Assembly: GCF_048403405.1 (NCBI RefSeq)
Contig: NZ_CP183131.1
Source: Escherichia coli
Lineage (GTDB): Bacteria > Pseudomonadota > Gammaproteobacteria > Enterobacterales > Enterobacteriaceae
DNA: 64,000 nucleotides
Strand: one strand, 5' to 3'
Part shown: in pieces, positions 1,008 through 59,773 of the stretch
How the letters are laid out: each line of letters begins with the position of its first letter
Position numbering within the stretch: the stretch's first letter is position 1
Notes under the pieces: generated by a model
Told to the model about the DNA's origin: nothing
What the model saw: the letters and a program-made list of their open reading frames with translations, nothing else
Database searches by the model: none
Translations under genes and position numbers: made by a program

Positions 1008-1085
1008 TGAGCTCTCTCCTTTCGGTTGAGAGGCCACTACCGTCCCAATCGGGAAGTAATGGCCCCGATGGGTTTAAAGTGGTTC

Positions 1086-1959: not shown

Positions 1960-1977
1960 ACTTTCACATGTGAAAGT
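1960..1977. promoter_or_regulatory. 18-bp perfect palindrome ACTTTCACATGTGAAAGT (parS-like)
   Basis: Read directly; one of five copies of core CTTTCACATGTGAAAG. Confidence 0.6.
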
Positions 1978-16965: not shown

Positions 16966-17826
16966 ATGAAAAAGGCTTTAATCACCACCGTGGCTCTGGC
17001 TGTAGCAGCTCTATCTGGCTGTGCATCCACCAGCAGTTACGAACCCACAGCGTACAAAACCAATCACAGTCGCGCTTACAACATCGCGGAGGCCGGTGGC
17101 CTGGTAACAGGCATCCAAGACGCTTCTGTTCCGCGTGACAAGCTGGAGCGTCTGACCGACACCAAAACGTTTGGGGCAGCCTACGTGCTGTCTGGCTACA
17201 TGTCCCCTCAGCTCGGAATGACCGACTGGCAAGGTGGCTTGGTCAACCTTGCGAACTGGGCTATCGGCCCCAAACAGCATGGCGCTCGCAATAGCTTGAT
17301 CGCTTGGATGCCTGCTAACGAAGCAGTTTCACCGGCAGACGCTCAGGCCAAATTTCTTTCACATGTGAAAGTTTCCATTGAGTCAGCGCTGACTGATTTG
17401 GGTGCCAATTTCACGCTTCTGTATGACAAAGATGGTCGCCTAACCTATCAGTTCTACAAGAATGAATGGGGTTGCCCGACGTGGGTGAACGGACAAAGTA
17501 AGGTAGCTGACATGTGTTCCGTTAAGGTGAAAATCGTGGAGCCTCGCCTAGGGTCAGCTCCTAATTTTGTCTCTGGCGTTCAAGGTACAGCGTATGCCTT
17601 CACATCAGGCCATGAGACCGCATACAACTTTGTGAATGTCGGTAATGGGGCAGCAAGCCATGCTCCTCAGCAAGCGATCTACGCAGCTATTAGCAAACAG
17701 CTACCAGCTTGGGCCTACCTCTACCTTGCTCCAAAATCGGTTGAGCTGGATAATGGCGAAAAAGTTGCTTTCCCTTACCTTCTTGATCAGGGAAAAGCAG
17801 AGTTATTTGTTTACCCAGAAGCGTAA
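16966..17826 (+). CDS. lipoprotein (286 aa)
   Basis: Signal peptide with lipobox LSGC; RBS ACGGAGAA. Confidence 0.6.
   Translation: MKKALITTVALAVAALSGCASTSSYEPTAYKTNHSRAYNIAEAGGLVTGIQDASVPRDKLERLTDTKTFGAAYVLSGYMSPQLGMTDWQGGLVNLANWAIGPKQHGARNSLIAWMPANEAVSPADAQAKFLSHVKVSIESALTDLGANFTLLYDKDGRLTYQFYKNEWGCPTWVNGQSKVADMCSVKVKIVEPRLGSAPNFVSGVQGTAYAFTSGHETAYNFVNVGNGAASHAPQQAIYAAISKQLPAWAYLYLAPKSVELDNGEKVAFPYLLDQGKAELFVYPEA
17356..17371. promoter_or_regulatory. palindrome CTTTCACATGTGAAAG (parS-like), intragenic copy
   Basis: Read directly; inside the lipoprotein CDS. Confidence 0.5.
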
Positions 17827-17867: not shown

Positions 17868-20663
17868 TCCACCACCACCAGTTGGCGCGCCTGTTTGAGG
17901 GTCTATGCTGTTTGTCGCCTCTTTTCGCTTCGCGTCAATATCAATCCCTTCCAACCGCTCCAACGCCCTTTCCTGAGCATTCTTCCGCGTCCCGTCAATA
18001 TTGAAGTCATTCCCTGCTCCAGTCAGCGAGTCGAGATTTATTGAGGCCGGATCAGGGAATTTACCGTTCTGCTGTAATATCCCAAGCCACTCATCCAAAT
18101 TAATTTTGCTCCAATCAATTTCGGCAATTTTATCTAGTGGAATCCCTTCACACTGAGGATTTTTGGGGTCTCCAAAGTTCTGCCCCAATTGAGGGCGAAC
18201 CTGTTCTTGTATAATACGAGAGAGCGGAGAATTGAAGCAGCAATACGCTTCTCTTTTTTCAATACAAGCGCCCAACACCTTAGATTTACAATAAGAGCCT
18301 ACATAGGTGCAATTCTTGAGCGCTCTTTTGGCGTTCATAGTGAACTCTTCTTCCTCGCACTTATAAATCATCTGGATCATCACCATCGCAACGACATAGA
18401 CGGTATATATCGTCATGGCAGTGCTAAGCCATGTTGTCGCAGTCTCCATCATTGCTTCGGCAGCTTGTTCAGATGCTGCGGCAGCCGCCTGCTCTGTTGC
18501 TGCATCTTGGCCTGCTGATTTCATGACATCCATCATCACTTCTTTGACTTGCTCTTTGAGCTGGTCAATGAGTTGATCAACAAACTGCTCTACAGGCTGG
18601 AAGAACGAATCAACAGCACCTGAAACGTTCTCTATATAACTTGTGAACGGTTTTGTGACTTCTGTCCACCCTTGAAGGGCAGGTTCCCTAAGTACCTGAT
18701 AAGCACCTTTAAGCGCATTACCATCAGTCAGCCCCATCACTGCGCCATCGAGCTTTGGAACGGCCATTATTAGGTTCAGATAATCGGCAAGAGATATATT
18801 GGTTGGCTTTTCACAGCAATCAGAAACTCCCCCAACAGCTATCTTGCATTCGCCAGCTTCCCCTGCAAAAGCAGAGCAAATAACGTTTTCATCCCCGGTA
18901 GGATTGTCATCCCCATCTTGGCCTGTGCAGCTCATATCCTGCGTCATGAATTGGGCTGCATTGAGCAACGCAGTAGCGCGAGCAAAATCAGTGCTTTGTG
19001 TTTTGGTCAAATCAAGGCAGTCATCTCCCATGCAGCGTATAGGCCCACCGCACTGGTACTCAGTTTCCTTTTCCAAGGTCGGAACAGAAACATCTGTACC
19101 ACAGTCATAAGTATCCTCGTGGACGTAGCACGTACCAGAACTTCCCTGAGCACCATCAACACATTTGGAACTGATGAAGCCGCACTGAGGGTTTTCTTCA
19201 TATTTCTGACAGCTATCGAGATTCCCGCCCGTGTTTACCGGACAGTGCGTTTCACCTTGAGGGTCTGTCCAGCAGTCCATTTGCCCCTTATAAAAGTCAT
19301 AGTCAGCTTTAACTCGAACCTTTTTGCATAGTTTTGGAATACCAGGCAAAGGTGACGGCTTGAGTTGAGATTCGCAAACTTTGATCCCATTGATGACTGT
19401 GCAGCCCGTAGCATCAGTCGGGTCATCTATACATGTGATCTCGCCTTCCGCAAAACCATCTACAACCCCTTTGGCTGAATCCATGCAGCTCTGTGGAGCC
19501 CACTCATCCTTGGTAATGGCTTTTGATGGGTCATAGCGTAGCTTTATGCGGCCAAAACCCTCACCTGCGCCAGTTACTGAAACGCGGATCTTAAACGTAA
19601 CAACATCACCATCTTTCACATTCTTGAAATAGGGAGTGACATCAATATTAGGGTTTCGCTCCCAACTTGTTGACAATTCACATCGGCCAGCCGTTTCTGG
19701 AGGGAAATTGCCGTCAGGGCCGGACCATACTTTAGTTTCCTGACCTGATTTACCAACCCAAACTTGCATGTAGTCATCCCACTTGGCGTACTCAAGAGTT
19801 GCAGACACTATGGCGTCTGGATTACTGACTTGGACCCGCGTGTATTCCTCATAAATCGAACAGTTGCCACTCCAGTAGTCGTTACCAACTCGGCCAATCC
19901 ACAACTCAGTACAGCCTTCTCCACAAGATTTGAGGTTATATGGACCATCATAGTGCTTCACCACAGAGGCATCGTAGTCATGGACAACCTCACAGTCCGC
20001 GCTTTGATCTACAACACGCTGACACCGTTCATACTCTGGAATGTGGGCGTTGATAGTATTCTGATTGATGGTTGTTTCGGCAGAACAATCCCCAAAGCCA
20101 CCTGCGATGAGGTCCATATCCTCATAGGTCTTTTTGCTTAGATTTAGTACAGGGTCATTACTGAAATCAGGGCGTGATCGATTAGAGGCATCGAGAAGAA
20201 CCTTGTATGCCGCACCAGAGATTGATGGATTAGCACTATTGGCATCACTCCACAGCGACCCTTTTGCATTATTCCCCACGCTGTCCATGTCATCGCCAGA
20301 GTCGTAAATGCCTTGCAGACCGCCCACATCAGGTTTATTGGCATCAGGGAAGTAATAACTATCAGGTTTATTGTTGGTCCCGCTCGTTCCGGGGAATAGA
20401 TCATTGACATTAATCTGACTCCCCCCGTTCATTTGGAATTGACCGTCTTTCAACGTCGGCATAGAGATTGTGCCATCTTGCACAGTCCCCGAGCTCGACT
20501 TGAATGAGTTTGAGAGGTTTTGTCCGAAAGCCTGGGCCTCTTTACCCACCGCTGTGATGTCCTGGTCTTGGCTACCGTTAGCGTAGGAATGTATCGGCAG
20601 CGCAGACATGGTTACTGTCAACAGCGAGGCCACAGCTTTCATAAAGTAATTATGACTTCGCAT
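17865..20663 (-). CDS. traN: mating-pair stabilisation outer-membrane protein TraN
   Basis: Cys-rich 932 aa with signal peptide; position after traU; ORF track 17865..20675, RBS TGGAGAA before MRSHNYF. Confidence 0.85.
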   Translation of the reverse strand: MRSHNYFMKAVASLLTVTMSALPIHSYANGSQDQDITAVGKEAQAFGQNLSNSFKSSSGTVQDGTISMPTLKDGQFQMNGGSQINVNDLFPGTSGTNNKPDSYYFPDANKPDVGGLQGIYDSGDDMDSVGNNAKGSLWSDANSANPSISGAAYKVLLDASNRSRPDFSNDPVLNLSKKTYEDMDLIAGGFGDCSAETTINQNTINAHIPEYERCQRVVDQSADCEVVHDYDASVVKHYDGPYNLKSCGEGCTELWIGRVGNDYWSGNCSIYEEYTRVQVSNPDAIVSATLEYAKWDDYMQVWVGKSGQETKVWSGPDGNFPPETAGRCELSTSWERNPNIDVTPYFKNVKDGDVVTFKIRVSVTGAGEGFGRIKLRYDPSKAITKDEWAPQSCMDSAKGVVDGFAEGEITCIDDPTDATGCTVINGIKVCESQLKPSPLPGIPKLCKKVRVKADYDFYKGQMDCWTDPQGETHCPVNTGGNLDSCQKYEENPQCGFISSKCVDGAQGSSGTCYVHEDTYDCGTDVSVPTLEKETEYQCGGPIRCMGDDCLDLTKTQSTDFARATALLNAAQFMTQDMSCTGQDGDDNPTGDENVICSAFAGEAGECKIAVGGVSDCCEKPTNISLADYLNLIMAVPKLDGAVMGLTDGNALKGAYQVLREPALQGWTEVTKPFTSYIENVSGAVDSFFQPVEQFVDQLIDQLKEQVKEVMMDVMKSAGQDAATEQAAAAASEQAAEAMMETATTWLSTAMTIYTVYVVAMVMIQMIYKCEEEEFTMNAKRALKNCTYVGSYCKSKVLGACIEKREAYCCFNSPLSRIIQEQVRPQLGQNFGDPKNPQCEGIPLDKIAEIDWSKINLDEWLGILQQNGKFPDPASINLDSLTGAGNDFNIDGTRKNAQERALERLEGIDIDAKRKEATNSIDPQTGAPTGGGG

Positions 20664-37727: not shown

Positions 37728-37744
37728 GCGCCCTTTTCGGGCAC
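37728..37744. promoter_or_regulatory. FlhDC-family activator box GCGCCCTTTTCGGGCAC upstream of traL
   Basis: ~70-85 bp upstream of traL start. Confidence 0.5.
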
Positions 37745-38399: not shown

Positions 38400-38415
38400 G
38401 GCCCATTTTGGGCAC
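38400..38415. promoter_or_regulatory. FlhDC-family activator box GGCCCATTTTGGGCAC
   Basis: In the 38325..38504 intergenic region. Confidence 0.5.
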
Positions 38416-38460: not shown

Positions 38461-38480
38461 AACTTTCACATGTGAAAGTT
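38461..38480. promoter_or_regulatory. 20-bp perfect palindrome AACTTTCACATGTGAAAGTT (parS-like)
   Basis: Read directly. Confidence 0.6.
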
Positions 38481-46109: not shown

Positions 46110-46124
46110 TGTCCAATTTGGGCA
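46110..46124 (+). promoter_or_regulatory. FlhDC-family activator box TGTCCAATTTGGGCAG
   Basis: Between divergent traI and lipoprotein gene; same orientation as the 16105 box. Confidence 0.5.
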
Positions 46125-49237: not shown

Positions 49238-49726
49238 ATGTTTGGAACAATCATTTTAACTGCGATGCTCACCACCAGCTCAGCCACTGCCGAAGATGCA
49301 GGGAAGAACATCGCCTCAGGCTTGGCGGCGGCATCCGCCAGCCAAATGGGGCAGGCCGTAATGCCAACTTTAGCTACCAGCTCGGCCATTGCAAAAAGCG
49401 CAGGTAAAGGCATGGTGTCAGGTTTGGCTGCGGCGACTGCCAGCTACATTCCCCAAGACGAGCTGAGCTTTACTCGAAGCTATAAGAACTCTGAGGCTGT
49501 GGATATGGCAAAGGGCCTGGGGACATTGAAAGAAGCGCCTGAGTTTCTCTACGTTGTTACAGACGTAAATGCCAACATGGCGGTCAAATGCAAGCGCGTC
49601 TGGGAGCCTCAATCTCTGGCTTTAAGTCCAGTGATTGTTGAGCTGGTGGAACTACGTAAGACGAACAACAAAGACAGCTACGAACAAGCACTATCCCACC
49701 TCGATTGTTCAATGTTCACAGACTAA
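49238..49726 (+). CDS. secreted protein (162 aa)
   Basis: ORF track 49178..49726; RBS GAGGAA before MFGTIILTAML signal peptide. Confidence 0.5.
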   Translation: MFGTIILTAMLTTSSATAEDAGKNIASGLAAASASQMGQAVMPTLATSSAIAKSAGKGMVSGLAAATASYIPQDELSFTRSYKNSEAVDMAKGLGTLKEAPEFLYVVTDVNANMAVKCKRVWEPQSLALSPVIVELVELRKTNNKDSYEQALSHLDCSMFTD

Positions 49727-49735
49727 AACAATTAA

Positions 49736-49758
49736 GGGGCCGATGGCCCCTAATTTTT
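49736..49758 (+). terminator. intrinsic terminator
   Basis: GGGGCC-GAT-GGCCCC then TAATTTTT. Confidence 0.65.
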
Positions 49759-49817
49759 AATAACCCAATTTCTTTTGATACCTGATTTTCCTACCAAGCA
49801 CAGTTGTCATACACCAT

Positions 49818-50096
49818 TCAATTCACATGGATAGCGAATACTTCAACCGGACAATCTCCAAAGTGCGGGTGCGTTATAACACTCCTTGAGAAGCCACGCC
49901 AAGGGCGAATCTCTATCCTGGACATATCTCCAGCCTTTGGGTAGCCACACTTAACATGGACTTCATCATACTCGCGCCCCTCTAGTCTTTTTATCCAGTA
50001 GTCTGTAACGAGGCGATATTCATCTGGTTTTTCTCCAGATTTGATCTGATCGAAGTAAATCTTTTTTACGGGCAGATGAAGTATTCTCTTTTTCAT
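49818..50096 (-). CDS. ASCH/PUA-like small protein
   Basis: ORF track 49818..50117; RBS AGGTGG before MKKRILHL; ASCH-like pattern is a weak motif-level call. Confidence 0.4.
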   Translation of the reverse strand: MKKRILHLPVKKIYFDQIKSGEKPDEYRLVTDYWIKRLEGREYDEVHVKCGYPKAGDMSRIEIRPWRGFSRSVITHPHFGDCPVEVFAIHVN

Positions 50097-50121
50097 AATC
50101 ACCACCTGATAGCCCATCAGA

Positions 50122-50328
50122 CTATCTAACTATTCGACAAAACATCCCTTTTTCAATTTCTGTCTCTCTCGCCTCATGGGCCAATACAATATCCGCGATA
50201 ACACGAATATTCCCTTCATAGTTGCGAATGGCCGCATCCCTCATCGTGTCTAAAGTGTCCTGACACTTCGCTCGCCTGAATTTAACGAGCCAACTTTGCC
50301 GATCTATCTTGTCCACACCAAATCCCAT
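50122..50328 (-). CDS. hypothetical small protein (68 aa)
   Basis: ORF track. Confidence 0.35.
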   Translation of the reverse strand: MGFGVDKIDRQSWLVKFRRAKCQDTLDTMRDAAIRNYEGNIRVIADIVLAHEARETEIEKGMFCRIVR

Positions 50329-50946
50329 TTAGCGAACCATGTATCCAGCTTTTTTGGCCGCAGCATCAAGCTCGGAGGAGAAGTTAACGTCGGACTTTTC
50401 TGCCGCGTTATAGAGGGCTCCACACTTGGGCCATGAGCGTCCTACCAGTTTCATCGCCAACGCATCCGCCAGCATTTCTCGGATCTGTGTTTCAGCCTCA
50501 CCAAAATCGGCCAGAGTTTCGTCTATGCCCGACTCTTCCATCAGCTCGATGAGCTGTGGTTGTTTGAGCCAGACGCCTGTTTGCATTTCCAACTGATCTC
50601 TTGCATCGGCCACCAATTGGCGTTCAAGGGTTACGCCATTCACGGTCTTAACAAATTGCTTTGGCTGACGCTTTACCTTTTTTGGCCTGGACACATCAGA
50701 GATAACCGTCACCGGCTTCCCACGCAGTTCACGCGGCAACGGTCCACTTAGCCCCAGAACTAAGCGACGAGCGTACTCATGCTCGTATGGTTTCAACCCT
50801 CGACCTTCACGGTACATTTCAGTATCCACCAGCAGATCACCGCGCAGCCTCGCATTTTTCCGCACTTGTTCGGACAAGACCGATTTACCCTTCCCGCTGG
50901 CTCCCATTACGAGCGAGTGAGATTCTACTTTGTTATCAAAAAACAT
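50329..50946 (-). CDS. P-loop NTPase / kinase-like protein
   Basis: N-terminal Walker A GASGKGKS. Confidence 0.55.
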   Translation of the reverse strand: MFFDNKVESHSLVMGASGKGKSVLSEQVRKNARLRGDLLVDTEMYREGRGLKPYEHEYARRLVLGLSGPLPRELRGKPVTVISDVSRPKKVKRQPKQFVKTVNGVTLERQLVADARDQLEMQTGVWLKQPQLIELMEESGIDETLADFGEAETQIREMLADALAMKLVGRSWPKCGALYNAAEKSDVNFSSELDAAAKKAGYMVR

Positions 50947-51039
50947 AATTCCGCCCCCAAGGAGGTGTTGCTATAAAACATGGTTTGAACATCCGTATTT
51001 TCACGGCAATAACCGCCGGATAATGCAAGACTCCCAAAC

Positions 51040-51258
51040 CTAAATAGGTCTCCAGGTGATGACATCGAAGTCATAGCTGACTTCCGAGTTGTCGTCCGCC
51101 GTTCGCCACGAACAATCATCTTCCTGAACATGGATCAAGTCGTACTCAACAATTTTGCCCGACCAACATCCTTTAAGCTGGCAATGAACAGGCACACCGA
51201 CGACCGGCATCTTGTCGTTGACGCTGATCCACGGTTCTTGCTTTTGATCCAGATCCAC
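51040..51258 (-). CDS. hypothetical small protein (DUF551-like pattern)
   Basis: ORF track; W-x-S-V-x-D-x-x-P ... TWRPI pattern. Confidence 0.35.
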   Translation of the reverse strand: MDLDQKQEPWISVNDKMPVVGVPVHCQLKGCWSGKIVEYDLIHVQEDDCSWRTADDNSEVSYDFDVITWRPI

Positions 51259-51261
51259 CGG

Positions 51262-51525
51262 TTAGTCCTCTATGAACGATTTAATGGATCGCCCATCAAA
51301 AAACAGTTTCCCAGTTCCTGATACCGAATGTACTTCTGGAGCTGCCTTCCCTTTCAGGAGTTTCTGATAGCGCACCGCGTCTTTGAGCTCAGAGATCCTG
51401 ACGCCAATGAGTGTGGCCGTCTCCTCAACTGTTAAAATACGGTCCCAAAAGCTGGTGGCGCTGTTATTGCGCCCACCGATACTCTGGGCAACGCACTCTG
51501 TTCTGGCCGCTTTTCCCTTTGCCAT
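51262..51525 (-). CDS. small HTH DNA-binding protein
   Basis: ORF track 51262..51543; helix-turn-helix-like TVEETATLIGVRISELKDAVR. Confidence 0.45.
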   Translation of the reverse strand: MAKGKAARTECVAQSIGGRNNSATSFWDRILTVEETATLIGVRISELKDAVRYQKLLKGKAAPEVHSVSGTGKLFFDGRSIKSFIED

Positions 51526-52120
51526 TGGCAATGTCCTCTTCATTCTTCTCAGCCCCCAGCTTACTCAGTATTTCAGCTTTTGTAGCGCGATGGCCGCGCA
51601 TTAAAAGAGCATTCAGCAGGTATCCAGTGAACACCTCTGTACTCGGCATACGGTCAAGCAACTCAACATACTGCTCATCCGTCAAATCATGGATCTCACA
51701 ATATTTTTCCACCGCCTTTTCGTAGGCTTCTGCGTAGCCATGAGTGGAAATCCTGAAAGCAATATCCCCATTGCCGTAGCCTGGCTTTGTGACGAGAAAA
51801 CAAGGCGCGAAGTAGGTTCTCTTCACCCCCATCCGGCTCCGGTTCTCAATGCTGATATAAGCCCTCAGCCCCTCAGCAATGATGTTTGGCCCGGAGTTGC
51901 GTCGCCGCTTACAAGTCTTATTCTGACGCTTCACCTCTTCTGCCTCAGCTTCCCACTTTCGGTCCAAGCTGTAGGCCAGCCGGTGAGCTGTTGCGTAGGA
52001 ATACTCTCTCAAGGAGAAGTATTCCTGCCGGTAATCATCCGCCACCCCAACTGTTCGTGCGACACGGAACCCGACGAAACCGGCGTCATGGGTTCCCTCG
52101 CCGTAGTAAATGACTGCCAT
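51464..52120 (-). CDS. DNA-binding protein with two AP2-like repeats
   Basis: Repeated Y..G.F...EEA..AY-like patterns (REYSYATAHRLAYSLD; GYAEAYEKAVEKY). Confidence 0.4.
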   Translation of the reverse strand: MAVIYYGEGTHDAGFVGFRVARTVGVADDYRQEYFSLREYSYATAHRLAYSLDRKWEAEAEEVKRQNKTCKRRRNSGPNIIAEGLRAYISIENRSRMGVKRTYFAPCFLVTKPGYGNGDIAFRISTHGYAEAYEKAVEKYCEIHDLTDEQYVELLDRMPSTEVFTGYLLNALLMRGHRATKAEILSKLGAEKNEEDIANGKGKSGQNRVRCPEYRWAQ

Positions 52121-53547
52121 TATCTACCTTCCTTACTTCTGATACCGTGCTGCACCACGGTATGGCGACCGCAATTCACATTCAGGTGATCCCGAACTGC
52201 GGCCATGACCGCTGAATGCAATCTGTAATCCACACTCTGCCCAAGCGTTTCTGTCGCTTGTTCTTTTGCCATCCACGAAACATCAAAGCTATCAGGTATC
52301 GACATCAACTCCTGAACCAGATCGACCGATGGCTTGTAAATGCGGCCACCGTCTTGGATGTACACTGCATCCTTTACCCCACGATCCTGAGACTTGAGGA
52401 TGGTCGGGCAACTGGTGCTTTCTCTCGTCAAGAACGCAGGCATCCTGCGAGAAGTTGACTCTCTGGCCTGAATTGACTTCAACACTGTGACGTCAGCACA
52501 ATCCCCGAGGTGCTTCTCGATCACCGGCCACAATCGTCCACCAGCTCTCTGCTCAGGTTTCGGTGGAACGAACCCAGGGAAGACCGACGCCACCATGTAA
52601 TAGCGTTCTCGCCCCTGGTAAGCGCCGAAATCCAGACCGTTCAAGACCATCTCAGTGAGGAAGTACCCCATCCGCCGCAGTGTCGTTCCCATCATCGCCC
52701 CGGCTCCGGATGCTTTGAAGTTCGGGACGTTTTCCACCAGCACGACGGCAGGGTTCACGACCTCGATCTGTTTTAGTGCCGGGTAAACCATGTCGAGCAT
52801 GGTGGAGAGATCCTCAAGAGAACGCTCTTTGTCCCTTGGACTTTTGGCGTTTGAGTGGTCATCACACCCCAACGAGTAATGGGCCAAACCAATTGGTGGG
52901 CACTCCGCCAGCAAGGCTCCAAGGCGATCCAGCTCCAGGTGATGAATGTCTTCATTCAGCAGGATACGCGGGGAGCTGTTCACCAGCGTATTGAGCGCAT
53001 GTACTTCACTCAGGTTCCGCCCGGATGCTCTGTCTCTGGCTTCAACTGGACGATGCTCCAAAACAATCTCAGCCTTCCAGCCAAGCGCTTCCATAACATG
53101 AATGTCTACCCCGCCAGTCAATGCCACAAAGGCACGGAAAGGGCTGGTTTTTCTGAACCGATCCGCAATGGCAAAGGCTCTGTTTGCGACAGGAGTGAAG
53201 ACTACTCGGCCTTTTCGCATTTCGACGTGGAAACGCTCTGTATAGCGAGGGAAGCACTTATCTATGAGCCCTTGTCCAGAAAACTCAATAACGGTTTCCA
53301 GCGGGTTGTTGGAGCGACTCTTTGGTTGATACCGGCGCTGATAAACCTGGTGTGTCTGTAGTTCATCGGTCGCTGGGATCACCGAAAAACCGCCCATCCC
53401 CTCCCCTGGCTCAACGGCGATGCCCATACCTGGCTTGAACCCCATAACATCCAAAAAGTTGGACGAAACCCTAACCTTGCGTTTATCGCCTACTCGATTG
53501 AACGCAAGTTGTTTGGTTACTACGGAGGGGGAGACGATCGGTAACAT
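52120..53547 (-). CDS. C5-methyltransferase-like protein, paralog of the gene at 1..1007, Gly-Cys in place of catalytic Pro-Cys
   Basis: ALTGGVD (motif I-like), SLGCDDHSNAKS (motif IV position), VENVPNF (motif VI); related N-terminal domain. Confidence 0.6.
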   Translation of the reverse strand: MLPIVSPSVVTKQLAFNRVGDKRKVRVSSNFLDVMGFKPGMGIAVEPGEGMGGFSVIPATDELQTHQVYQRRYQPKSRSNNPLETVIEFSGQGLIDKCFPRYTERFHVEMRKGRVVFTPVANRAFAIADRFRKTSPFRAFVALTGGVDIHVMEALGWKAEIVLEHRPVEARDRASGRNLSEVHALNTLVNSSPRILLNEDIHHLELDRLGALLAECPPIGLAHYSLGCDDHSNAKSPRDKERSLEDLSTMLDMVYPALKQIEVVNPAVVLVENVPNFKASGAGAMMGTTLRRMGYFLTEMVLNGLDFGAYQGRERYYMVASVFPGFVPPKPEQRAGGRLWPVIEKHLGDCADVTVLKSIQARESTSRRMPAFLTRESTSCPTILKSQDRGVKDAVYIQDGGRIYKPSVDLVQELMSIPDSFDVSWMAKEQATETLGQSVDYRLHSAVMAAVRDHLNVNCGRHTVVQHGIRSKEGR

Positions 53548-53550
53548 TGG

Positions 53551-54051
53551 TCAACCTCTTTTCTTCTTGTTTTGCTCGCGCTTCACCATTGCTCCAGCAG
53601 CTTTCAGAAGTCTCTGGTTCTCCGCCAGCTCCTCTTGGAGTTCCTGAGTATCCTCTTCTGTCTGAGGCTTTTTCAGCTCGGCCTCGCAATATTGGACCTC
53701 TTCCTGCAAGCTGACTTTCGCAAACTTGAGAGCGGCCAGTCGCGTCGTATAAACGCCAAAAGGCAATTCGCCACCTTCCCGGAACTGCTTCAAACACCAG
53801 CTCGGTATAGATGGCAACCAACCAAAGTCCCCATTCTTCCGTGACCTTTTCCCCCACGTAATCCCATCTAACTTTTGGGCAAGATTGACATAGCGTTGAT
53901 CGCTGGTTGAGTTGCGTCGTTTCTGAATAGAGCGAACTATCCACTCTGTAACCTCGACCTTTGCTTTATCATCATCAGAGATGTAATAAAGGGCTGCGTA
54001 CAACACAGCGCCTTTACGAATGACTGATGGTGGGTATGCCTGGGCTTTCAT
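53551..54051 (-). CDS. hypothetical protein (166 aa)
   Basis: ORF track; RBS TAGGGGGATAG. Confidence 0.45.
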   Translation of the reverse strand: MKAQAYPPSVIRKGAVLYAALYYISDDDKAKVEVTEWIVRSIQKRRNSTSDQRYVNLAQKLDGITWGKRSRKNGDFGWLPSIPSWCLKQFREGGELPFGVYTTRLAALKFAKVSLQEEVQYCEAELKKPQTEEDTQELQEELAENQRLLKAAGAMVKREQNKKKRG

Positions 54052-54059
54052 CTATCCCC

Positions 54060-54392
54060 CTATCGCTTTTTCTGTCCGACAAGACGGAGATGATCGGCGG
54101 CCAAGTCATACTGCTCGTTTTTGTCGCGGCGGCGGAATCTGTCAAAAAACTTCCCTCGTGGCAGGGTTTCTTCCATAGCGATCAGGCGGTTCAGCCACAC
54201 TTCTTGAGGTAGCATCCCTGCTGGAGTCGGCCCGAGCTTACGTCCTTCCTTGACGTGCTCCATTGTTTGCGTGGCAGTAAAAATCGCACCACCAAACTTT
54301 CTCCACTTGAATTGCAGGGGCATATCTGGAGACTCATCCAGCATCAATTTCTTATTGGTTTGTTCTGTCACGACAATTACTCCACCATCCAT
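54060..54392 (-). CDS. hypothetical basic protein (110 aa)
   Basis: ORF track. Confidence 0.4.
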   Translation of the reverse strand: MDGGVIVVTEQTNKKLMLDESPDMPLQFKWRKFGGAIFTATQTMEHVKEGRKLGPTPAGMLPQEVWLNRLIAMEETLPRGKFFDRFRRRDKNEQYDLAADHLRLVGQKKR

Positions 54393-54883
54393 TCTTCACT
54401 AAGCAGGAACGCCCAGCGCTCTTCTGCTTTTTCTGGGTTGTCTTTGGCCTGTTTGATCATGATCTCGGCGGCGTTAAAGCCTACCTCTCCACTGAACCGG
54501 CCCCATGAATGGCTATGCCACTCGCGCATCACACTTCGGCCAAGCGATGCAAGTTCTGGACTTACACCCTCATGGAGGGCATAGAGCTCCCAAGCATCCC
54601 ACCCGTATCGTAATAGGTTGTGCCCTGGGGCGTTAAAGGCCTGAGCAGCCTTGAACCGCTCTCCAGGCTCCTTCCCTCTAACATCCACACCCTGGAGCAC
54701 CAACCCCATTACCACTTCAATGACCGGCTCGCGTTGCTTCTTTGCCAGCTCGATGGCAGCCACCAGCATTGCTTTGGCGTCAGCAAATTTCCCATGCCCT
54801 TGGCACATACCGCAGGTTTCTTTGGAAGGGGAAAAGTCATAAACACCGGAACCAGCACAGAGGCGGCATGTCATGTCAATCAT
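54377..54883 (-). CDS. protein with DnaJ-type zinc finger (two CxxCxGxG repeats)
   Basis: CRLCAGSG and CGMCQGHG; RBS AGGAGAGAAG; ORF track 54377..54901. Confidence 0.5.
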   Translation of the reverse strand: MIDMTCRLCAGSGVYDFSPSKETCGMCQGHGKFADAKAMLVAAIELAKKQREPVIEVVMGLVLQGVDVRGKEPGERFKAAQAFNAPGHNLLRYGWDAWELYALHEGVSPELASLGRSVMREWHSHSWGRFSGEVGFNAAEIMIKQAKDNPEKAEERWAFLLSEEWMVE

Positions 54884-55550
54884 GGGCTCTTCTCTCCTCA
54901 TACTCTTCGATGCGCTCTTTCAGACGCTGAACCACTGGTGCGAGCTCAGGGATAGCTTCCGCTTCCTCAAGCGTGTATCGCTTGTCTTCCTGGTAATCGA
55001 CTATTTGAGGAGGCCTTGGCTGTTTAGGGAACTCAGCAAAGTCATTCAGCGACATCGAGGTAGGAAGTCCTCCTTCAATCTCACCTTTTTCGTTGAGTGA
55101 CTGGGTGACGATAAGCTGTGTTCCGCCCACCTCGGTATCAAAGCGGTCATCAAAGCGCTCACCGATAGTCCAGCCGCCACGGCCAAGAACACAGGTCGTA
55201 CTCATACGTAGGCGATTGAATGCTTTAGCGTCATCCCAGTTCAAAGGATTTTCATCCATGAGGAAAAAAGGCGCTTCGTCCCGAACGAACACCTTGGACT
55301 TGGCGTTATCGAAGATCGGCCCAAACACCCCCTGCTGGAGGTATGGTTCGACCTTCTCTGCAAGATCCTGGTGCCCTTGAGAACGCAGCGCCTCATAGAG
55401 CTGGGTGATTGTTTGTTTGCCGGTGCCCGGAAGGCAGGACAATACTGTCTGCTTTTCCTCGTCACTCAGGCTTACCATTCTGGACAAAAAGCTGACTACC
55501 AGCTCGTTGTGCCCATCGACCGTTTCAATGTTGAGCTTGTTCTCGTCCAT
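54876..55550 (-). CDS. hypothetical protein (224 aa)
   Basis: ORF track 54876..55583; RBS GAGGAA. Confidence 0.45.
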   Translation of the reverse strand: MDENKLNIETVDGHNELVVSFLSRMVSLSDEEKQTVLSCLPGTGKQTITQLYEALRSQGHQDLAEKVEPYLQQGVFGPIFDNAKSKVFVRDEAPFFLMDENPLNWDDAKAFNRLRMSTTCVLGRGGWTIGERFDDRFDTEVGGTQLIVTQSLNEKGEIEGGLPTSMSLNDFAEFPKQPRPPQIVDYQEDKRYTLEEAEAIPELAPVVQRLKERIEEYEERRAHD

Positions 55551-55806
55551 CTTCTTCCTCAGTAATCGGTTCGATAAATTCAATGGAGTCCATGCTTACA
55601 TGACTGATAATGGCTTTCAGGCCGCAGCAGTCGCATGGTTCAAAGGTCAGTTCTGATCCCTTGGGAGACTGATGCGTGACCGTTGCCACAGCCCCTAGAG
55701 GGATCACCCCCCAGCCGTTTTTTAGTACCCGAGTAGTTCTGACCAGCCGACCTTTGTACTCTCGTTTCAGTTTCGGATGCGGCACTACCGCATATCGCTT
55801 ACTCAT
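55525..55806 (-). CDS. hypothetical small protein (93 aa)
   Basis: ORF track 55525..55893; RBS AAGGGG before MSKRYAV. Confidence 0.4.
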   Translation of the reverse strand: MSKRYAVVPHPKLKREYKGRLVRTTRVLKNGWGVIPLGAVATVTHQSPKGSELTFEPCDCCGLKAIISHVSMDSIEFIEPITEEEDGREQAQH

Positions 55807-56185
55807 TTCGGTCCCCTTGTACCAAAGGCTCGACAACCAGCTCTTGAGCTTCGTCCCAGTCGGACACCTTTGCATCACCAAACGCAAAGGCAATTCGCAT
55901 AGCCACTGTCGGCCTGCCTATTTTCATCAAGTAAGCCGCAGCACCGGCACACATCGACTCTTGTCCCGAAGGTGCATAGTTACCCTCTTCATCCCATTCA
56001 CCACCTGACTTTGAATGCACGGTCTTGTGGCAATGAAACGTCGTCATGTCGTTTTCAACGATGTCGTTGATGATGCCTTCTAATCGCCCAGGGACCAGCT
56101 CGATAGCGCCCTCCTTCCGGAATGGACAGTTGGCGCAAGGTTTCTTCAAACGGAGATGATTTGCTTGCTTTGGCATACATATCAC
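55799..56185 (-). CDS. hypothetical Cys/His-containing protein (possible zinc ribbon)
   Basis: CANCPF and FHCHKT; non-ATG (GTG) start in track, ATG 9 nt downstream. Confidence 0.4.
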   Translation of the reverse strand: MICMPKQANHLRLKKPCANCPFRKEGAIELVPGRLEGIINDIVENDMTTFHCHKTVHSKSGGEWDEEGNYAPSGQESMCAGAAAYLMKIGRPTVAMRIAFAFGDAKVSDWDEAQELVVEPLVQGDRNE

Positions 56186-56194
56186 TTTTACAGT

Positions 56195-56207
56195 ATCATT
56201 TTATGAT
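56195..56207. promoter_or_regulatory. palindrome ATCATTTTATGAT (operator-like), shared with parA promoter
   Basis: Same sequence reverse-complemented at 59783..59795. Confidence 0.45.
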
Positions 56208-56274
56208 TCTATGATATAGCCATATTCCGTGTAGTCAATATCTCACTAACAATTACTTTCTATCGGACGCTTAC

Positions 56275-56291
56275 GCGCCCATTTTGGGCAG
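56275..56291. promoter_or_regulatory. FlhDC-family activator box GCGCCCATTTTGGGCAG
   Basis: In divergent intergenic hub 56186..56494. Confidence 0.5.
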
Positions 56292-56341
56292 ATAGACAAG
56301 TTATTTGGGCGTTTGGAGTGTGCGAGGTGGACAGCGGGGAG

Positions 56342-56359
56342 ACTTTCACATGTGAAAGT
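56342..56359. promoter_or_regulatory. 18-bp palindrome ACTTTCACATGTGAAAGT (parS-like)
   Basis: Read directly. Confidence 0.6.
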
Positions 56360-56494
56360 TTTGTTTCTTGGTATCGTTTTATTGTCCCTTGATATTATTT
56401 TATGATGCTGTAATAATCATAAATAAGGGCCGCATCGCTCTTCGACCTTCGTTGCAGCCCTTACAACACAATCAAGCAATTAAGGAGCTTTGTT

Positions 56495-56638
56495 ATGCTG
56501 CAAGGCAATACTAACACGAATAAGCGCATCCCGCTCGCGGCGTTCATGAAATGGCCGCTGGCGAAACGTCAGGACTTCATCGACCGGGAAATGTCCGGTT
56601 GCCCCGACTTTATCAAGACGTCTTTGCTTCGGCATTAA
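56495..56638 (+). CDS. small leader ORF (47 aa)
   Basis: Manual; RBS AAGGAGCTTTGTT; followed by hairpin 56661..56691. Confidence 0.3.
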   Translation: MLQGNTNTNKRIPLAAFMKWPLAKRQDFIDREMSGCPDFIKTSLLRH

Positions 56639-56660
56639 GGCGATCAGGCAGGAAAGCAAA

Positions 56661-56691
56661 GAACCTCGCTTCGGCGGGGTTCTTCGTTTCT
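56661..56691 (+). terminator. terminator/attenuator hairpin between leader ORF and methyltransferase-like gene
   Basis: GAACCTCGC-TTCG-GCGGGGTTC then TTCGTTTCT. Confidence 0.5.
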
Positions 56692-56729
56692 ACCTCTTGA
56701 ATGTTTCGTCAGAACAAACTGGAGCGCTT

Positions 56730-57365
56730 ATGTCACCAGAAACACAGCAACTTACATCCAAGGCTTTATCTCTCATCGAGCAGTCCCGATACAGAATGGG
56801 CACATCTCGGTTTGTTGAGGCCTTTATTGACCAGTGGGCATACTTGCAGACTGGCCTATACCCAGCCAAGGAGGAGATCCCGGAAGAACTTCAGCCGGTC
56901 GCCTTCGAGCTCTCTCACGTCCTGTCTGCCGCCATTAAGCGCGACCCCACCAGCGATGTTTTGGGTTACGTCCTAAGCATGTCTGGCTTCCACAAGAAGG
57001 GCACCAATTACTTCCCCACTCCTCCAGAGATTGGCCGCTTGATGTCACTCATTGTTGGCTCACAGTCTTCGGCAGACTTTTATGAGCCCTGCTGTGGTTC
57101 TGGCATCAACGCCATTCACTGGATGGAAAACCTGATCGAGAACCACGGTCCCGAAGCATTGAGAGAAGCCTCAATCTACCTGGAAGACATCGATCCGTTG
57201 ATGGTGAAGTGCTGCATGATCCAGCTATTCCATTATTTCGAGTCCCGCAATACCACTCCCAAAACGCTGAGTATCGTCGGCATAGACACCCTTAGCAGAC
57301 GAACCAAGAACATCGCCTACTACGCCGAAAAACCTCCAGCAACCGCCGCTACCGTGGCAGCATAA
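56730..57365 (+). CDS. truncated N6-adenine methyltransferase-like protein (SAM-binding half only)
   Basis: YFPTPPEIGRLM (HsdM motif X-like) and FYEPCCGSG (motif I); no NPPF/NPPY before stop; RBS CTGGAGCG; ORF track 56697..57365. Confidence 0.55.
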   Translation: MSPETQQLTSKALSLIEQSRYRMGTSRFVEAFIDQWAYLQTGLYPAKEEIPEELQPVAFELSHVLSAAIKRDPTSDVLGYVLSMSGFHKKGTNYFPTPPEIGRLMSLIVGSQSSADFYEPCCGSGINAIHWMENLIENHGPEALREASIYLEDIDPLMVKCCMIQLFHYFESRNTTPKTLSIVGIDTLSRRTKNIAYYAEKPPATAATVAA

Positions 57366-59757: not shown

Positions 59758-59773
59758 CTTTCACATGTGAAAG
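59758..59773. promoter_or_regulatory. palindrome CTTTCACATGTGAAAG (parS-like) upstream of parA
   Basis: Read directly. Confidence 0.6.

What the first reader, a model, noticed from the sequence alone, without database searches (positions are those of the whole stretch)
49818..56185. Thirteen-gene leftward operon of DNA-modification and nucleic-acid-binding-like proteins
Tightly packed and frequently overlapping genes, from 56185 leftward: Cys/His zinc-ribbon-like protein, two small proteins, DnaJ-type zinc-finger protein (CRLCAGSG..CGMCQGHG), basic protein, 166-aa protein, C5-MTase-like protein with Gly-Cys at the catalytic position, protein with two AP2-like DNA-binding repeats, small HTH protein, DUF551-like protein, P-loop kinase-like protein (GASGKGKS), 68-aa protein, ASCH/PUA-like protein. 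It ends at a convergent terminator with topB. The composition (modified-base reader, kinase, methyltransferase-like, DNA binders) resembles anti-defence or DNA hypermodification islands of phages and plasmid leading regions, but I do not recognise the combination as a described system.
Basis: partly seen in the sequence, partly recalled or inferred. Interest (0 to 1): 0.7.

Follow-up and report, generated by a model that had tools for sequence, protein, structure and literature searches.

The report
IncC plasmid dcm2 accessory gene cluster
This is a real, tightly packed gene cluster, but it is the already catalogued dcm2 / vcrx036-vcrx055 backbone region of IncC multidrug-resistance plasmids: a conjugation-regulated mix of one orphan cytosine methyltransferase and small unrelated DNA-binding-type proteins, with no sign of being a new multi-part DNA-modification system.

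Summary
In detail: 13 minus-strand ORFs (49818-56176) are packed with overlaps or gaps of 25 nt or less, apart from one 93-nt gap, and end at a bidirectional terminator opposite the topB operon. The DNA is IncC/IncA plasmid backbone, matching 1069 plasmid records, many of them identically. It equals pVCR94 vcrx036-vcrx055. The 475-aa gene is the named dcm2. Its promoter carries a published AcaCD activator site, and the AcaCD box and a ParB-binding parS core were located here.

- Dcm2 keeps the C5-methyltransferase catalytic motifs, with Gly-Cys.
- The 92-aa protein has an ASCH fold.
- The DnaJ zinc-finger, DUF551 and DUF6283 similarities are sub-threshold.
- The "kinase" is not supported, and neither is PGAP's "thymidylate kinase" label.

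The "system" reading fails. Dcm2 homologues in 12 unrelated loci carry none of the other genes, except distant DUF6283 relatives in two. IncA and another IncC lineage lack two or three of the genes. IS insertions in the region are common. Published transposon sequencing and knockouts gave no anti-defence phenotype.

The best reading is a conjugation-coupled accessory array whose one assignable activity is protective cytosine methylation. Verdict: already known, low interest.

The parts
56344..56357 (.). parS 14-bp symmetrical core (TTTCACATGTGAAA), the ParB-binding site reported near R55_55/vcrx036
   Evidence: An exact match is one of 5 in the window, against 0.01 expected. Its identity as IncC parS comes from PMC10954446. 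It is conserved in IncC L014 and IncA L015.
56276..56290 (-). AcaCD (FlhDC-type master activator) box TGCCCAAAATGGGCG of the vcrx036 promoter
   Evidence: It lies at the distance from the start codon expected for the ChIP-exo motif 20382-20410 upstream of vcrx036 in pVCR94. Related boxes sit upstream of tra operons in the window, 11 against 2.3 expected. It is conserved in L014 and L015.
56211..56238 (-). Promoter zone: sigma-70-like hexamers TTGACT-16-TATCAT; the published AcaCD-dependent TSS maps to about 56230-56232
   Evidence: The hexamers come from the consensus scan. The TSS position is transferred from pVCR94 coordinates 20445-20447 relative to the start at 20501, which is an inference.
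55799..56176 (-). g01 = vcrx036, 125-aa Cys/His protein, distant DUF6283 relative
   Evidence: phrog_5443 scores 1e-22. It shares KKPCxxCP[FW]RK and FxCH motifs with Pfam-DUF6283 proteins. A family HMM hits those proteins at 2.5e-4 and 5.3e-4. Nine family members give sub-threshold DUF6283 hits. The AF2 model is confident but has no fold match.
55525..55806 (-). g02 = vcrx037, 93 aa, function unknown
   Evidence: The ORF is annotated and has no family hit.
54876..55550 (-). g03 = vcrx038, 224 aa, acidic (pI 4.6); labelled 'thymidylate kinase' by PGAP without HMM support
   Evidence: There are no NCBIfam, Pfam, PHROG or PDB hits. The C-terminal domain with the IGExF..R.DTEVGG motif is conserved. 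pI is. It is the most highly expressed of vcrx036-044 in wild-type pVCR94 and is partly AcaCD-independent.
54377..54883 (-). g04 = vcrx039, 168 aa, with an N-terminal CxxCxGxG x2 zinc-finger motif
   Evidence: Pfam DnaJ_CXXCXGXG gives i-E 0.019, 0.0037 and 0.0029. NCBIfam DnaJ matches only this motif, at 17 bits.
54060..54371 (-). g05 = vcrx040, 103-110 aa, basic (pI 9.9), function unknown
   Evidence: no family hit.
53551..54051 (-). g06 = vcrx041, 166 aa, basic with a coiled-coil tail; phage-shared family of unknown function
   Evidence: phrog_18599 scores 7e-31. Homologues occur in 24 phage records.
52120..53547 (-). g07 = dcm2 = vcrx042 (WP_000936896.1), orphan C5-cytosine methyltransferase family with a conserved ~130-aa N-terminal extra domain
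   Evidence: PF00145 scores 6.7e-8. In the family alignment the motif IV Cys, E-x-V, R-x-R and G-Q-S are invariant. The family profile aligns these to M.HhaI Cys81, ENV and RxR at 3.5e-12.
51464..52120 (-). g08, 218 aa, tandem AP2-fold DNA-binding protein (interrupted in pVCR94 as vcrx043 plus vcrx050)
51262..51543 (-). g09, 87-93-aa possible excisionase-like HTH ORF overlapping the 3' end of g08; status uncertain
   Evidence: PGAP does not annotate it, but another caller gives 87 aa. There is a good RBS before ATG 51525. g08 family homology ends just upstream of it. It has no Pfam hit. Most of it lies in the 462-bp indel.
51040..51258 (-). g10 = vcrx052, 72 aa, acidic, DUF551-like (sub-threshold)
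   Evidence: Pfam DUF551 gives i-E 0.1 over model positions 2-62 of 68. There is no phage tblastn hit.
50994..51455 (.). 462-bp segment present in this IncC lineage and absent from another (it carries g10 and most of g09)
   Evidence: blastn against pSH163_135 (L014).
50329..50946 (-). g11 = vcrx053, 205 aa, glycine-loop protein (weak DUF8308 hit); not a demonstrable NTPase or kinase
   Evidence: In the family alignment G18, G20 and S22 are invariant, but the Walker-A Lys is replaced by R or Y in several members. The only Pfam signal is a weak DUF8308 hit. The AF2 model is confident but has no PDB fold match.
50122..50328 (-). g12 = 68 aa, function unknown (annotated only in part as vcrx054 in pVCR94)
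   Evidence: It is conserved in IncA as an unannotated ORF.
49818..50096 (-). g13 = vcrx055, 92 aa, ASCH/PUA-like beta-barrel; family widespread in temperate phages
   Evidence: phrog_625 scores 4e-31. Homologues occur in 338 phage records. The AF2 model has pLDDT around 95-97. The top 10 Foldseek PDB hits, and 12 of the top 14, are ASCH-domain proteins, with probabilities mostly 0.84-0.97 and TM (target) 0.38-0.56. ASCH and DUF3850 Pfam hits in homologues are sub-threshold.
49735..49751 (.). Bidirectional intrinsic terminator shared with the convergent topB operon (vcrx059-056)
   Evidence: Terminator scan on both strands.

Best explanation
The region is the conserved accessory operon of the IncA/IncC plasmid backbone, vcrx036 to vcrx055 in pVCR94 numbering, with dcm2 in the middle.

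Transcription starts about 55 nt upstream of the first gene, at a promoter bound by the plasmid's master conjugation activator AcaCD. A ParB-binding parS site lies just upstream of that box. At least the proximal genes are therefore switched on together with the transfer genes in donor cells (shown in the literature for pVCR94).

The only product with an assignable activity is Dcm2, an orphan C5-cytosine methyltransferase with all catalytic motifs. The inferred mechanism is that it methylates its target sites on plasmid (and host) DNA in the donor, and again after establishment. The incoming plasmid is then pre-protected against restriction enzymes that recognise the same sites.

The other 11-12 small genes are a lineage-variable mosaic of independent plasmid- and phage-type accessory proteins:
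- a tandem-AP2 DNA binder;
- an ASCH-fold protein;
- a DUF6283-like Cys/His protein;
- a DnaJ-type zinc-finger protein;
- a possible excisionase-like HTH;
- a DUF551-like protein;
- a glycine-loop protein.

They most likely act singly, in regulation or in establishment in new hosts, and do not form one pathway with Dcm2.
For: **Identity of the locus.** There are 1069 plasmid records, typed as IncC replicon with MOBH relaxase. dcm2 is WP_000936896.1, which is vcrx042.

**Regulation.**
- The AcaCD ChIP-exo peak, motif and TSS come from published Table S3. RNA-seq shows vcrx036 expression rising from 0 to 320 on induction, and RPKM near zero in the acaCD deletion for vcrx036, 037, 039 and 040.
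- The box was found here at 56276-56290 and parS at 56344-56357.
- Both are conserved in IncA and in another IncC lineage.
- The parS link is published.

**Dcm2 catalytic competence.** The Cys, E-x-V, R-x-R and G-Q-S motifs are invariant across 26 homologues down to 33% identity. They align to the M.HhaI catalytic residues.

**Protective role of plasmid dcm genes.** Deleting all three dcm genes abolished pVC211 transfer. The sister gene dcm3 protects pKAZ3 about 2700-fold against EcoRII.

**Mosaic nature of the rest.**
- None of the other families occurs in 12 unrelated Dcm2-homologue loci, by tblastn or family HMMs, except distant DUF6283 relatives in two.
- Indels separate IncA, this IncC lineage and another IncC lineage.
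- g13 and g06 are shared with phages.
- Dcm2 homologues sit in arrays with PsiA, SSB, umuDC and other orphan MTases.
Against: - No target sequence or activity has been shown for Dcm2 alone.
- Motif IV is non-canonical: Gly/Gln-Cys-Asp-Asp replaces Pro-Cys-Gln. Motif I is degenerate, and the NCBIfam dcm score of 37.5 is far below the curated cut-off of 100.65.
- Transposon sequencing found none of the dcm genes necessary for entry into restriction-proficient V. cholerae O395R.
- The single dcm2 deletion had no reported phenotype.
- A single-copy lacZ fusion of the vcrx036 promoter looked constitutive, not AcaCD-dependent.
- The distal genes vcrx053-055 are expressed without AcaCD in pVCR94.
- Many natural plasmids, including transfer-proficient pVCR94, carry insertions inside the cluster, so any benefit is conditional.
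- The very high conservation may reflect recent clonal spread and not selection.
Confidence: 0.55

Rival explanations
1. One reading: the 13 genes form one coherent anti-defence or DNA-hypermodification system. A methyltransferase-like enzyme, a kinase and a modified-base reader would work together to decorate plasmid DNA or neutralise host immunity.
For: - The genes are tightly packed, co-oriented and often overlapping.
- The ASCH fold is confirmed, and its PDB relatives include an ac4C amidohydrolase; YTH m6A readers also appear in the hit list.
- The MTase has an unusual motif IV and an extra N-terminal domain.
- DUF6283-like genes lie within about 0.5-2.5 kb of Dcm2 homologues in two unrelated loci as well as in IncA/C.
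- Related loci look like anti-defence islands.
Against: - Pfam, NCBIfam, PHROGs, PADLOC, PDB sequence search and fold search find no kinase, transferase, hydroxymethylase or dioxygenase.
- The Walker-A lysine is not conserved in the g11 family.
- There is no co-inheritance with Dcm2 in 12 loci.
- g08-g10 are absent from IncA, and g09-g10 from another IncC lineage.
- g08 is interrupted in transfer-proficient pVCR94.
- Transposon sequencing found no requirement against type I R-M plus CRISPR.
Confidence: 0.08
2. Regulatory or epigenetic module. Dcm2, the AP2, HTH and zinc-finger proteins reprogramme plasmid or host transcription, or plasmid maintenance (for example through cross-talk with ParB/parS), and do not protect against restriction.
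For: - parS lies directly upstream of the AcaCD box at this promoter, and ParB is proposed as a global regulator.
- Several products have folds typical of DNA-binding proteins.
- Carriage of an IncA/C plasmid is reported to remodel the host methylome.
- No restriction-evasion phenotype was seen in the transposon screen.
Against: - No target genes or binding sites are known.
- Insertions in the cluster are tolerated in many plasmids.
- The methylome paper could not resolve m5C motifs per gene.
- Relatives of the MTase sit among anti-restriction and anti-SOS-type genes, not regulators.
Confidence: 0.2
3. Functionally inert cargo. The small genes are hitch-hiking phage- or plasmid-derived morons, kept only because the IncC backbone has spread clonally and recently.
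For: - Identity is 95-100% across about 1000 plasmids, so conservation carries little information about selection.
- IS insertions and lineage indels are tolerated.
- No phenotypes have been published.
Against: - The same gene order, with intact ORFs, is kept between IncA and IncC at 84-93% nucleotide identity.
- The promoter, the AcaCD box and parS are conserved.
- Each family has many intact homologues at 35-60% identity in other elements, which argues for selected functions.
Confidence: 0.15

Closest known systems
IncA/C (IncC) plasmid backbone operon vcrx036-vcrx044 / vcrx050-055 of pVCR94 (R55_55 onward in R55), including dcm2
   Same: The sequence is the same: 100% identity to many IncC plasmids, and dcm2 is the identical protein WP_000936896.1. 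The AcaCD box, the parS site and the convergent topB operon are also the same.
   Different: pVCR94 has a ~4.5-kb insertion splitting g08. Another IncC lineage lacks the 462-bp g09-g10 segment, and IncA lacks g08-g10.
Orphan DNA methyltransferases of plasmid leading regions and anti-defence islands (Samuel et al. 2024, PMC11541004; Pinilla-Redondo et al. 2020, PMC7648647)
   Same: It is an orphan MTase with no partner endonuclease, embedded in a co-oriented array of small uncharacterised genes on a conjugative plasmid. Homologues neighbour PsiA, SSB, umuDC and other MTases.
   Different: The published IncC oriT lies upstream of mobI, about 20 kb from vcrx036 by pVCR94 coordinates and outside this window, and the direction of transfer is not established. 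Expression is driven by the donor-side activator AcaCD and not by ssDNA promoters. No known anti-restriction, anti-CRISPR or anti-SOS gene was recognised in the cluster.
hde (host defence evasion) operon vcrx089-093 of IncC plasmids (Roy et al. 2020, PMC7498323)
   Same: It is on the same plasmid, is likewise an AcaCD-regulon operon of accessory genes, and has a proposed role in entering defended hosts.
   Different: hde has demonstrated phenotypes: anti-type-I restriction, and Red-like repair of CRISPR cuts. The dcm2 cluster was not depleted in the same screen, and the two operons share no noted homology.
Canonical bacterial C5-cytosine methyltransferases (M.HhaI, Dcm/M.EcoRII; Pfam PF00145)
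   Same: The family shares the catalytic Cys (motif IV), ENV (VI), QxRxR (VIII), a GN(A/S)V-like GQSV (X) and a GDI-like NEDI (III). The family profile hits M.HhaI at 3.5e-12.
   Different: The residue before the Cys is never Pro, and Asp-Asp follows it in place of Gln-x. Motif I is degenerate. There is an extra, conserved ~130-aa N-terminal domain. The score is below NCBIfam's curated dcm cut-off. The specificity is unknown.

Membership tests
IncA/IncC plasmid backbone (AcaCD regulon operon vcrx036...) | Near-identical sequence and synteny with typed IncC plasmids (parAB-053, vcrx034, cluster, topB, traI) | tested here: met
   There are 1069 records, 911 covering at least 80% of the query, with IncC replicon typing and MOBH relaxase.
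IncA/IncC plasmid backbone (AcaCD regulon operon vcrx036...) | AcaCD-binding motif at class-II distance upstream of the first gene | tested here: met
   The box lies at 56276-56290, matching the published motif position and resembling the boxes upstream of tra operons. Activator dependence itself comes from the literature, and a lacZ fusion appeared constitutive.
C5-cytosine DNA methyltransferase (PF00145 / TIGR00675) | Catalytic Cys in motif IV, Glu of ENV, Arg-x-Arg of motif VIII, motif X | tested here: met
   C228, E272/V274, R313/R315 and G436-Q-S438 are invariant in 26 homologues. They align to M.HhaI.
C5-cytosine DNA methyltransferase (PF00145 / TIGR00675) | Pro-Cys dipeptide and FxGxG AdoMet motif; score above the curated family cut-off | tested here: not met
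   The family has Gly/Gln-Cys, never Pro-Cys, and only one invariant Gly in motif I. TIGR00675 scores 37.5 bits against a cut-off of 100.65. The Pfam match covers only residues 228-320.
C5-cytosine DNA methyltransferase (PF00145 / TIGR00675) | Demonstrated m5C formation at a defined target sequence | not testable with these tools
   The published methylomes did not resolve per-gene m5C motifs.
Plasmid leading-region anti-defence island | Location in the first-transferred DNA next to oriT, on the strand transcribable from the T-strand | not testable with these tools
   The published oriT is upstream of mobI, about 20 kb from vcrx036 by pVCR94 coordinates and outside the window (an inference). 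The nick site and direction of transfer are unresolved.
Plasmid leading-region anti-defence island | Presence of recognised anti-restriction, anti-CRISPR or anti-SOS genes (ardA, klcA, psiB, acr) | tested here: not met
   No such family was hit by Pfam, NCBIfam, PHROGs or PDB searches. Only an orphan MTase is present.
DNA hypermodification gene island | Enzymes beyond a methyltransferase: nucleotide kinase, glycosyl- or aminoacyl-transferase, dNMP hydroxymethylase, TET/JBP dioxygenase | tested here: not met
   No hits in any library. 'Thymidylate kinase' (g03) has no HMM support, and g11 lacks a conserved Walker-A Lys and any P-loop fold match.
Multi-gene system (co-inherited module) | Components co-occur with the signature gene across unrelated elements | tested here: not met
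   In 12 unrelated Dcm2-homologue loci none of the families g02-g06 or g08-g13 is present. Only distant DUF6283 relatives of g01 occur, in 2 loci.
AP2 DNA-binding domain (g08) | Three-stranded sheet packed on a helix; structural similarity to solved AP2 domains | tested here: met
ASCH / PUA-like domain (g13) | ASCH beta-barrel fold; Pfam PF04266 match | tested here: inconclusive
   The fold is supported: the top 10 Foldseek hits, and 12 of the top 14, are ASCH proteins, with probabilities mostly 0.84-0.97 and TM (target) 0.38-0.56, although E is only 0.09-0.5 with the chimeric query. Pfam ASCH and DUF3850 hits are sub-threshold, and found only in homologues.
P-loop NTPase / kinase (g11) | Invariant GxxxxGK[ST] lysine, a Walker B motif, and a P-loop alpha/beta fold | tested here: not met
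   The lysine is replaced by Arg or Tyr in several homologues. No Walker B was identified. No credible PDB fold match was found, with ATPase hits at probability 0.05 or less.
DUF6283 (g01) | Pfam PF19800 match | tested here: inconclusive
   Nine homologues score E<=0.1, the best at 1.5e-3. A g01-family HMM hits two Pfam-annotated DUF6283 proteins at 2.5e-4 and 5.3e-4, and they share a CxxC...CH motif.

The most novel reading that the evidence does not exclude
The Dcm2 family may not be an ordinary double-strand m5C methylase. It has an invariant catalytic Cys that is never preceded by Pro, an Asp-Asp after it, and a conserved ~130-aa N-terminal domain. It could be a specialised enzyme, for example one acting on the transferred single strand or having an unusual target or product. 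It might work with the DUF6283-like Cys/His protein that recurs beside it in IncA/C, Microbulbifer and Ralstonia elements. Together with the AP2 and ASCH proteins, the operon would then be a second, AcaCD-timed host-defence-evasion locus of IncC plasmids, aimed at defences not yet assayed (type II/IV restriction, BREX, DISARM).
Probability: 0.12. Interest if true: 0.55.

Novelty: already known. Interest (0 to 1): 0.22.

Why it matters
IncC plasmids are major carriers of multidrug resistance, including NDM and CMY beta-lactamases, and they cross genus boundaries easily. Every backbone gene that helps them establish in new hosts is therefore a potential target.

This cluster has been known and named for a decade, but eleven of its genes still have no function. 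This analysis adds three things:
- fold-level assignments: a tandem AP2 protein, an ASCH-fold protein, a DUF6283-like protein, and a divergent but catalytically complete C5-MTase family;
- removal of two misleading labels, 'thymidylate kinase' and 'P-loop kinase';
- evidence that the genes are a mosaic and not one machine, which argues for testing them gene by gene instead of only as a whole-operon deletion.

It does not reveal a new kind of system.

Tried and rejected
**Searches that found nothing or failed.**
- Concatenating proteins as queries for the search for homologous proteins returned nothing and used two of three searches, because the word index fails on chimeric queries.
- A concatenated Pfam scan found no significant domain. 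Per-protein and per-homologue scans gave only sub-threshold hits.
- PADLOC hit only the MTase, plus a coiled-coil artefact (JetC) for g06.
- Sequence searches against PDB found nothing for the 12 non-MTase proteins or for three family profiles.
- The first two chimeric alignments for g08+g01 were misaligned. Linker anchors fixed this.
- Rfam found nothing above threshold; the terminator hairpin weakly matched a miRNA model.
- A literature search for a TraDIS study of pMS6198A was unproductive.
- The supplement holding the Roy 2020 per-gene transposon counts is not held.

**Ideas considered and rejected.**
- *The EcoRII-protecting dcm of pKAZ3 is this gene.* Its knockout primers map to dcm3, at window 1024-1055.
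- *g03 is an ArdA/Ocr-like DNA mimic.* It is only moderately acidic (pI 4.6, net charge -17) and there is no supporting evidence.
- *g09 is an anti-CRISPR-associated (Aca) regulator.* There is no evidence for this.

Full report
**What is there**

Between 49818 and 56176 the minus strand carries 13 ORFs. Their junctions are -8, -26, -8, +5, +8, +3, -1, -80, +3, +93, 0 and +25 nt. The run ends at a G+C-rich hairpin (49735-49751) followed by T runs on both strands. This hairpin faces the last gene of the convergent topB operon.

PGAP annotates 12 of the 13 ORFs. The thirteenth, a small HTH-like ORF (g09), is called as 87 aa by another gene caller. It has a good ribosome-binding site at ATG 51525.
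- One of the 'two small proteins' is 224 aa.
- The first gene starts at 56176 in the annotations.
- A single transcript has not been demonstrated.

**Where it comes from**

The 6.7-kb stretch matches 1069 plasmid records. Of these, 911 cover most of the query and 459 are at least 99% identical. They are typed IncC, MOBH and MPF_F and come from Klebsiella, Salmonella, Escherichia, Vibrio, Shewanella and others. The surrounding genes are the IncC backbone: parA, parB, the HTH gene 053, an N6-methylase-like gene, the cluster itself, then the convergent topB operon, traI and traD.

The 475-aa protein is WP_000936896.1. The literature calls it dcm2, or vcrx042 in pVCR94. By coordinates, the cluster equals vcrx036-vcrx044 plus vcrx050-vcrx055 of pVCR94. 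In pVCR94 a ~4.5-kb insertion splits the 218-aa gene into vcrx043 and vcrx050.

**Regulation: published, and relocated here**

Carraro et al. 2014 (PMC4207636) reported four things for vcrx036 in pVCR94:
- an AcaCD ChIP-exo peak;
- a 29-bp motif 91-119 nt upstream of the start codon;
- a TSS about 55 nt upstream;
- a rise in expression from 0 to 320 when AcaCD is supplied, with 'vcrx036-vcrx044' predicted as an operon.

The matching box, TGCCCAAAATGGGCG, lies at 56276-56290. Related boxes occur upstream of the tra operons in this window, 11 against 2.3 expected by chance.

The 14-bp core of the IncC parS site (PMC10954446) lies 54 bp further upstream, at 56344-56357. It is one of five copies in the window. 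Both elements are conserved in IncA and in a second IncC lineage.

Two caveats apply. A single-copy lacZ fusion of this promoter appeared constitutive (PMC8373056). The distal genes vcrx053-055 are expressed without AcaCD in pVCR94.

**The methyltransferase**

Pfam PF00145 matches only residues 228-320 (6.7e-8). NCBIfam's dcm model scores far below its cut-off. Even so, a family of about 100 full-length homologues exists, down to 33% identity.

In an alignment of 26 of them, the following are invariant: the motif IV Cys (C228), E272-x-V274 (ENV), R313-x-R315 (QxRxR) and G436-Q-S438 (motif X). A NEDI motif takes the place of GDI. A profile of the family hits M.HhaI at 3.5e-12 and aligns these positions to Cys81, ENV and RxR.

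The residue before the Cys is Gly in the IncA/C clade and Gln, Asp or Cys in the others, but never Pro. Asp-Asp follows the Cys instead of Gln-x. Motif I is degenerate. A ~130-aa N-terminal domain with its own invariant residues is present throughout the family.

I conclude that Dcm2 is very probably an active C5-MTase of a divergent subfamily. Its target sequence is unknown.

**The other proteins**

No Pfam, NCBIfam or PDB sequence match reaches significance for any of the other 12 proteins. PHROGs places g01, g06 and g13 in phage families of unknown function.

A full HMMER scan of 1.84 billion representative proteins, using seven of the proteins concatenated, found 1777 relatives. These gave usable families. 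Scanning 150 relatives one by one against Pfam gave only sub-threshold but consistent signals:

| Family | Pfam signal in homologues |
|---|---|
| g01 | DUF6283 |
| g08 | AP2 |
| g13 | ASCH / DUF3850 |
| g04 | DnaJ CxxCxGxG |
| g11 | P-loop-only matches |

AlphaFold models from linker-anchored block alignments were confident, with domain pLDDT above 90.

- **g13 (92 aa).** The top 10 Foldseek PDB hits, and 12 of the top 14, are ASCH-domain proteins, including ZmASCH, PH0355, TTHA0113 and the ac4C amidohydrolase YqfB.
- **g10 (72 aa).** It gives a near full-length DUF551 match at i-E 0.1.
- **g11 (205 aa), the 'P-loop kinase'.** This label is not supported. The Walker-A lysine is replaced by Arg or Tyr in several homologues, no Walker B is evident, and the confident model has no credible PDB match.
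- **g03 (224 aa), PGAP's 'thymidylate kinase'.** This label has no HMM support at all.

**Is it one system?**

It is not. I fetched 12 unrelated loci that encode Dcm2 homologues at 79-36% identity, from Aeromonas, Microbulbifer, Ralstonia, Sphingosinicella and metagenomic contigs. I searched them with tblastn and with family HMMs. None contains a relative of g02-g06 or g08-g13. Only distant DUF6283 relatives of g01 appear, in two loci.

Those loci are long co-oriented arrays of small unknown genes. They also carry PsiA, SSB, umuDC, UDG, SNF2 helicases and further orphan methylases. This is the signature of plasmid establishment or anti-defence islands.

Gene content also varies within the IncA/C family itself:
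- A 462-bp segment (50994-51455, holding g10 and most of g09) is missing in another IncC lineage.
- IncA lacks g08-g10 and has a variant g01/g02 junction.
- At least 13 sequenced plasmids have an IS element inside the region.

**Published phenotypes**

- Transposon sequencing of pVCR94 entering a restriction- and CRISPR-proficient V. cholerae singled out only vcrx089-093. The authors state that none of the dcm genes was required.
- A triple dcm1/2/3 deletion of pVC211 lost transferability. No phenotype was reported for the dcm2 single mutant.
- The strong EcoRII protection shown for pKAZ3 belongs to dcm3, not dcm2. The knockout primers map to window 1024-1055. The neighbouring 'dam1' knockout, which had no effect, maps to 56683-56715.

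**Best explanation and rivals**

The most likely reading (confidence about 0.55) is a conjugation-coupled accessory operon. Its one assignable activity is protective cytosine methylation by Dcm2 in the donor and in the new host. The remaining genes would be independent plasmid- and phage-type accessory proteins that bind DNA or nucleic acids.

- *Shown:* identity of the locus, the promoter elements, the catalytic motifs, the AP2 and ASCH folds, and the lack of co-inheritance.
- *Inferred:* that Dcm2 is active, that methylation protects against restriction, and that the small proteins act singly.

| Rival explanation | Confidence |
|---|---|
| Regulatory or epigenetic module linked to ParB/AcaCD | 0.2 |
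| Inert hitch-hiking cargo | 0.15 |

**Novelty and score**

The locus, its promoter and its central gene are already described, so the finding is already known. Function remains unknown for most genes, which leaves a modest novel case. That case is a divergent Dcm2 subfamily, possibly partnered with DUF6283, acting as a second defence-evasion locus. I put it at about 0.12 probability and 0.55 interest if true. Overall interest is about 0.22.

One point rests on my own recollection and not on a tool result. The 462-bp segment may correspond to the short insertion 'i1' that distinguishes type 2 from type 1 IncC plasmids in the Harmer and Hall scheme. I did not verify this.

Noticed in passing
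window 1962-1975, 17357-17370, 38464-38477, 56344-56357, 59759-59772: There are five exact copies of the IncC parS 14-bp core TTTCACATGTGAAA, against 0.01 expected by chance. One sits 54 bp upstream of the AcaCD box of the cluster's promoter, and one lies upstream of parA.
   Followed up: partly
window 56697-57365 (+) and 56368-56514 (+): Divergent from the cluster are an N6-methylase-like ORF (vcrx034, 'dam1' of Dimitriu et al. 2024, whose knockout had no effect on restriction) and a 47-48-aa ORF (vcrx035). The AcaCD motif at this site was scored in both orientations in the literature.
   Followed up: partly
window 1024-1055 (-): The knockout primer for pKAZ3 dcm3, the gene that gives about 2700-fold protection against EcoRII, maps here. 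The window therefore begins inside or next to dcm3, a different methylase from the one in the finding.
   Followed up: yes
window 49401-50993 versus 51456-56700: Against pSH163_135, the 3' end of the cluster (g11-g13 and the intergenic region) is only 93.9% identical, while the rest is 99.1% identical. This points to a recombination patch next to the 462-bp indel.
   Followed up: no
window 49700-56400 (compared with plasmid records H1-H13): At least 13 sequenced IncC plasmids carry an IS element inside this region (ISVsa5, IS1B, IS1414, IS26, IS256, IS5, ISKpn18, IS30 or IS630). pVCR94 has about 4.5 kb inserted in the AP2-fold gene.
   Followed up: partly
window 54876-55550 (-), residues ~87-222 of g03: The C-terminal domain of the acidic 224-aa protein carries an invariant IGExF..R.DTEVGG motif. 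It also exists as stand-alone proteins of about 133-145 aa in other elements. No fold or function could be assigned.
   Followed up: partly
L006 9156-9578 (-); L007 7445-7894 (+): Pfam-DUF6283 proteins, which are distant relatives of vcrx036, lie about 0.5-2.5 kb from Dcm2-family methylases in Microbulbifer and Ralstonia elements. They are absent from the ten other loci examined.
   Followed up: partly
L020 9269-9883 (-); L012 1-1384: One soil-metagenome Dcm2 homologue has a genuine Pfam thymidylate-kinase gene next door, along with umuDC, UDG and two N6/N4 methylases. Another sits downstream of a second C5-methylase and PsiA.
   Followed up: no
window 37729-37743, 38400-38414, 46110-46124 (-): AcaCD-like boxes related to the one at 56276 occur in the tra region. 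The copy at 46110 lies where the divergent traI/vcrx059 promoter region would be expected, although those gene positions were not checked in this window.
   Followed up: no
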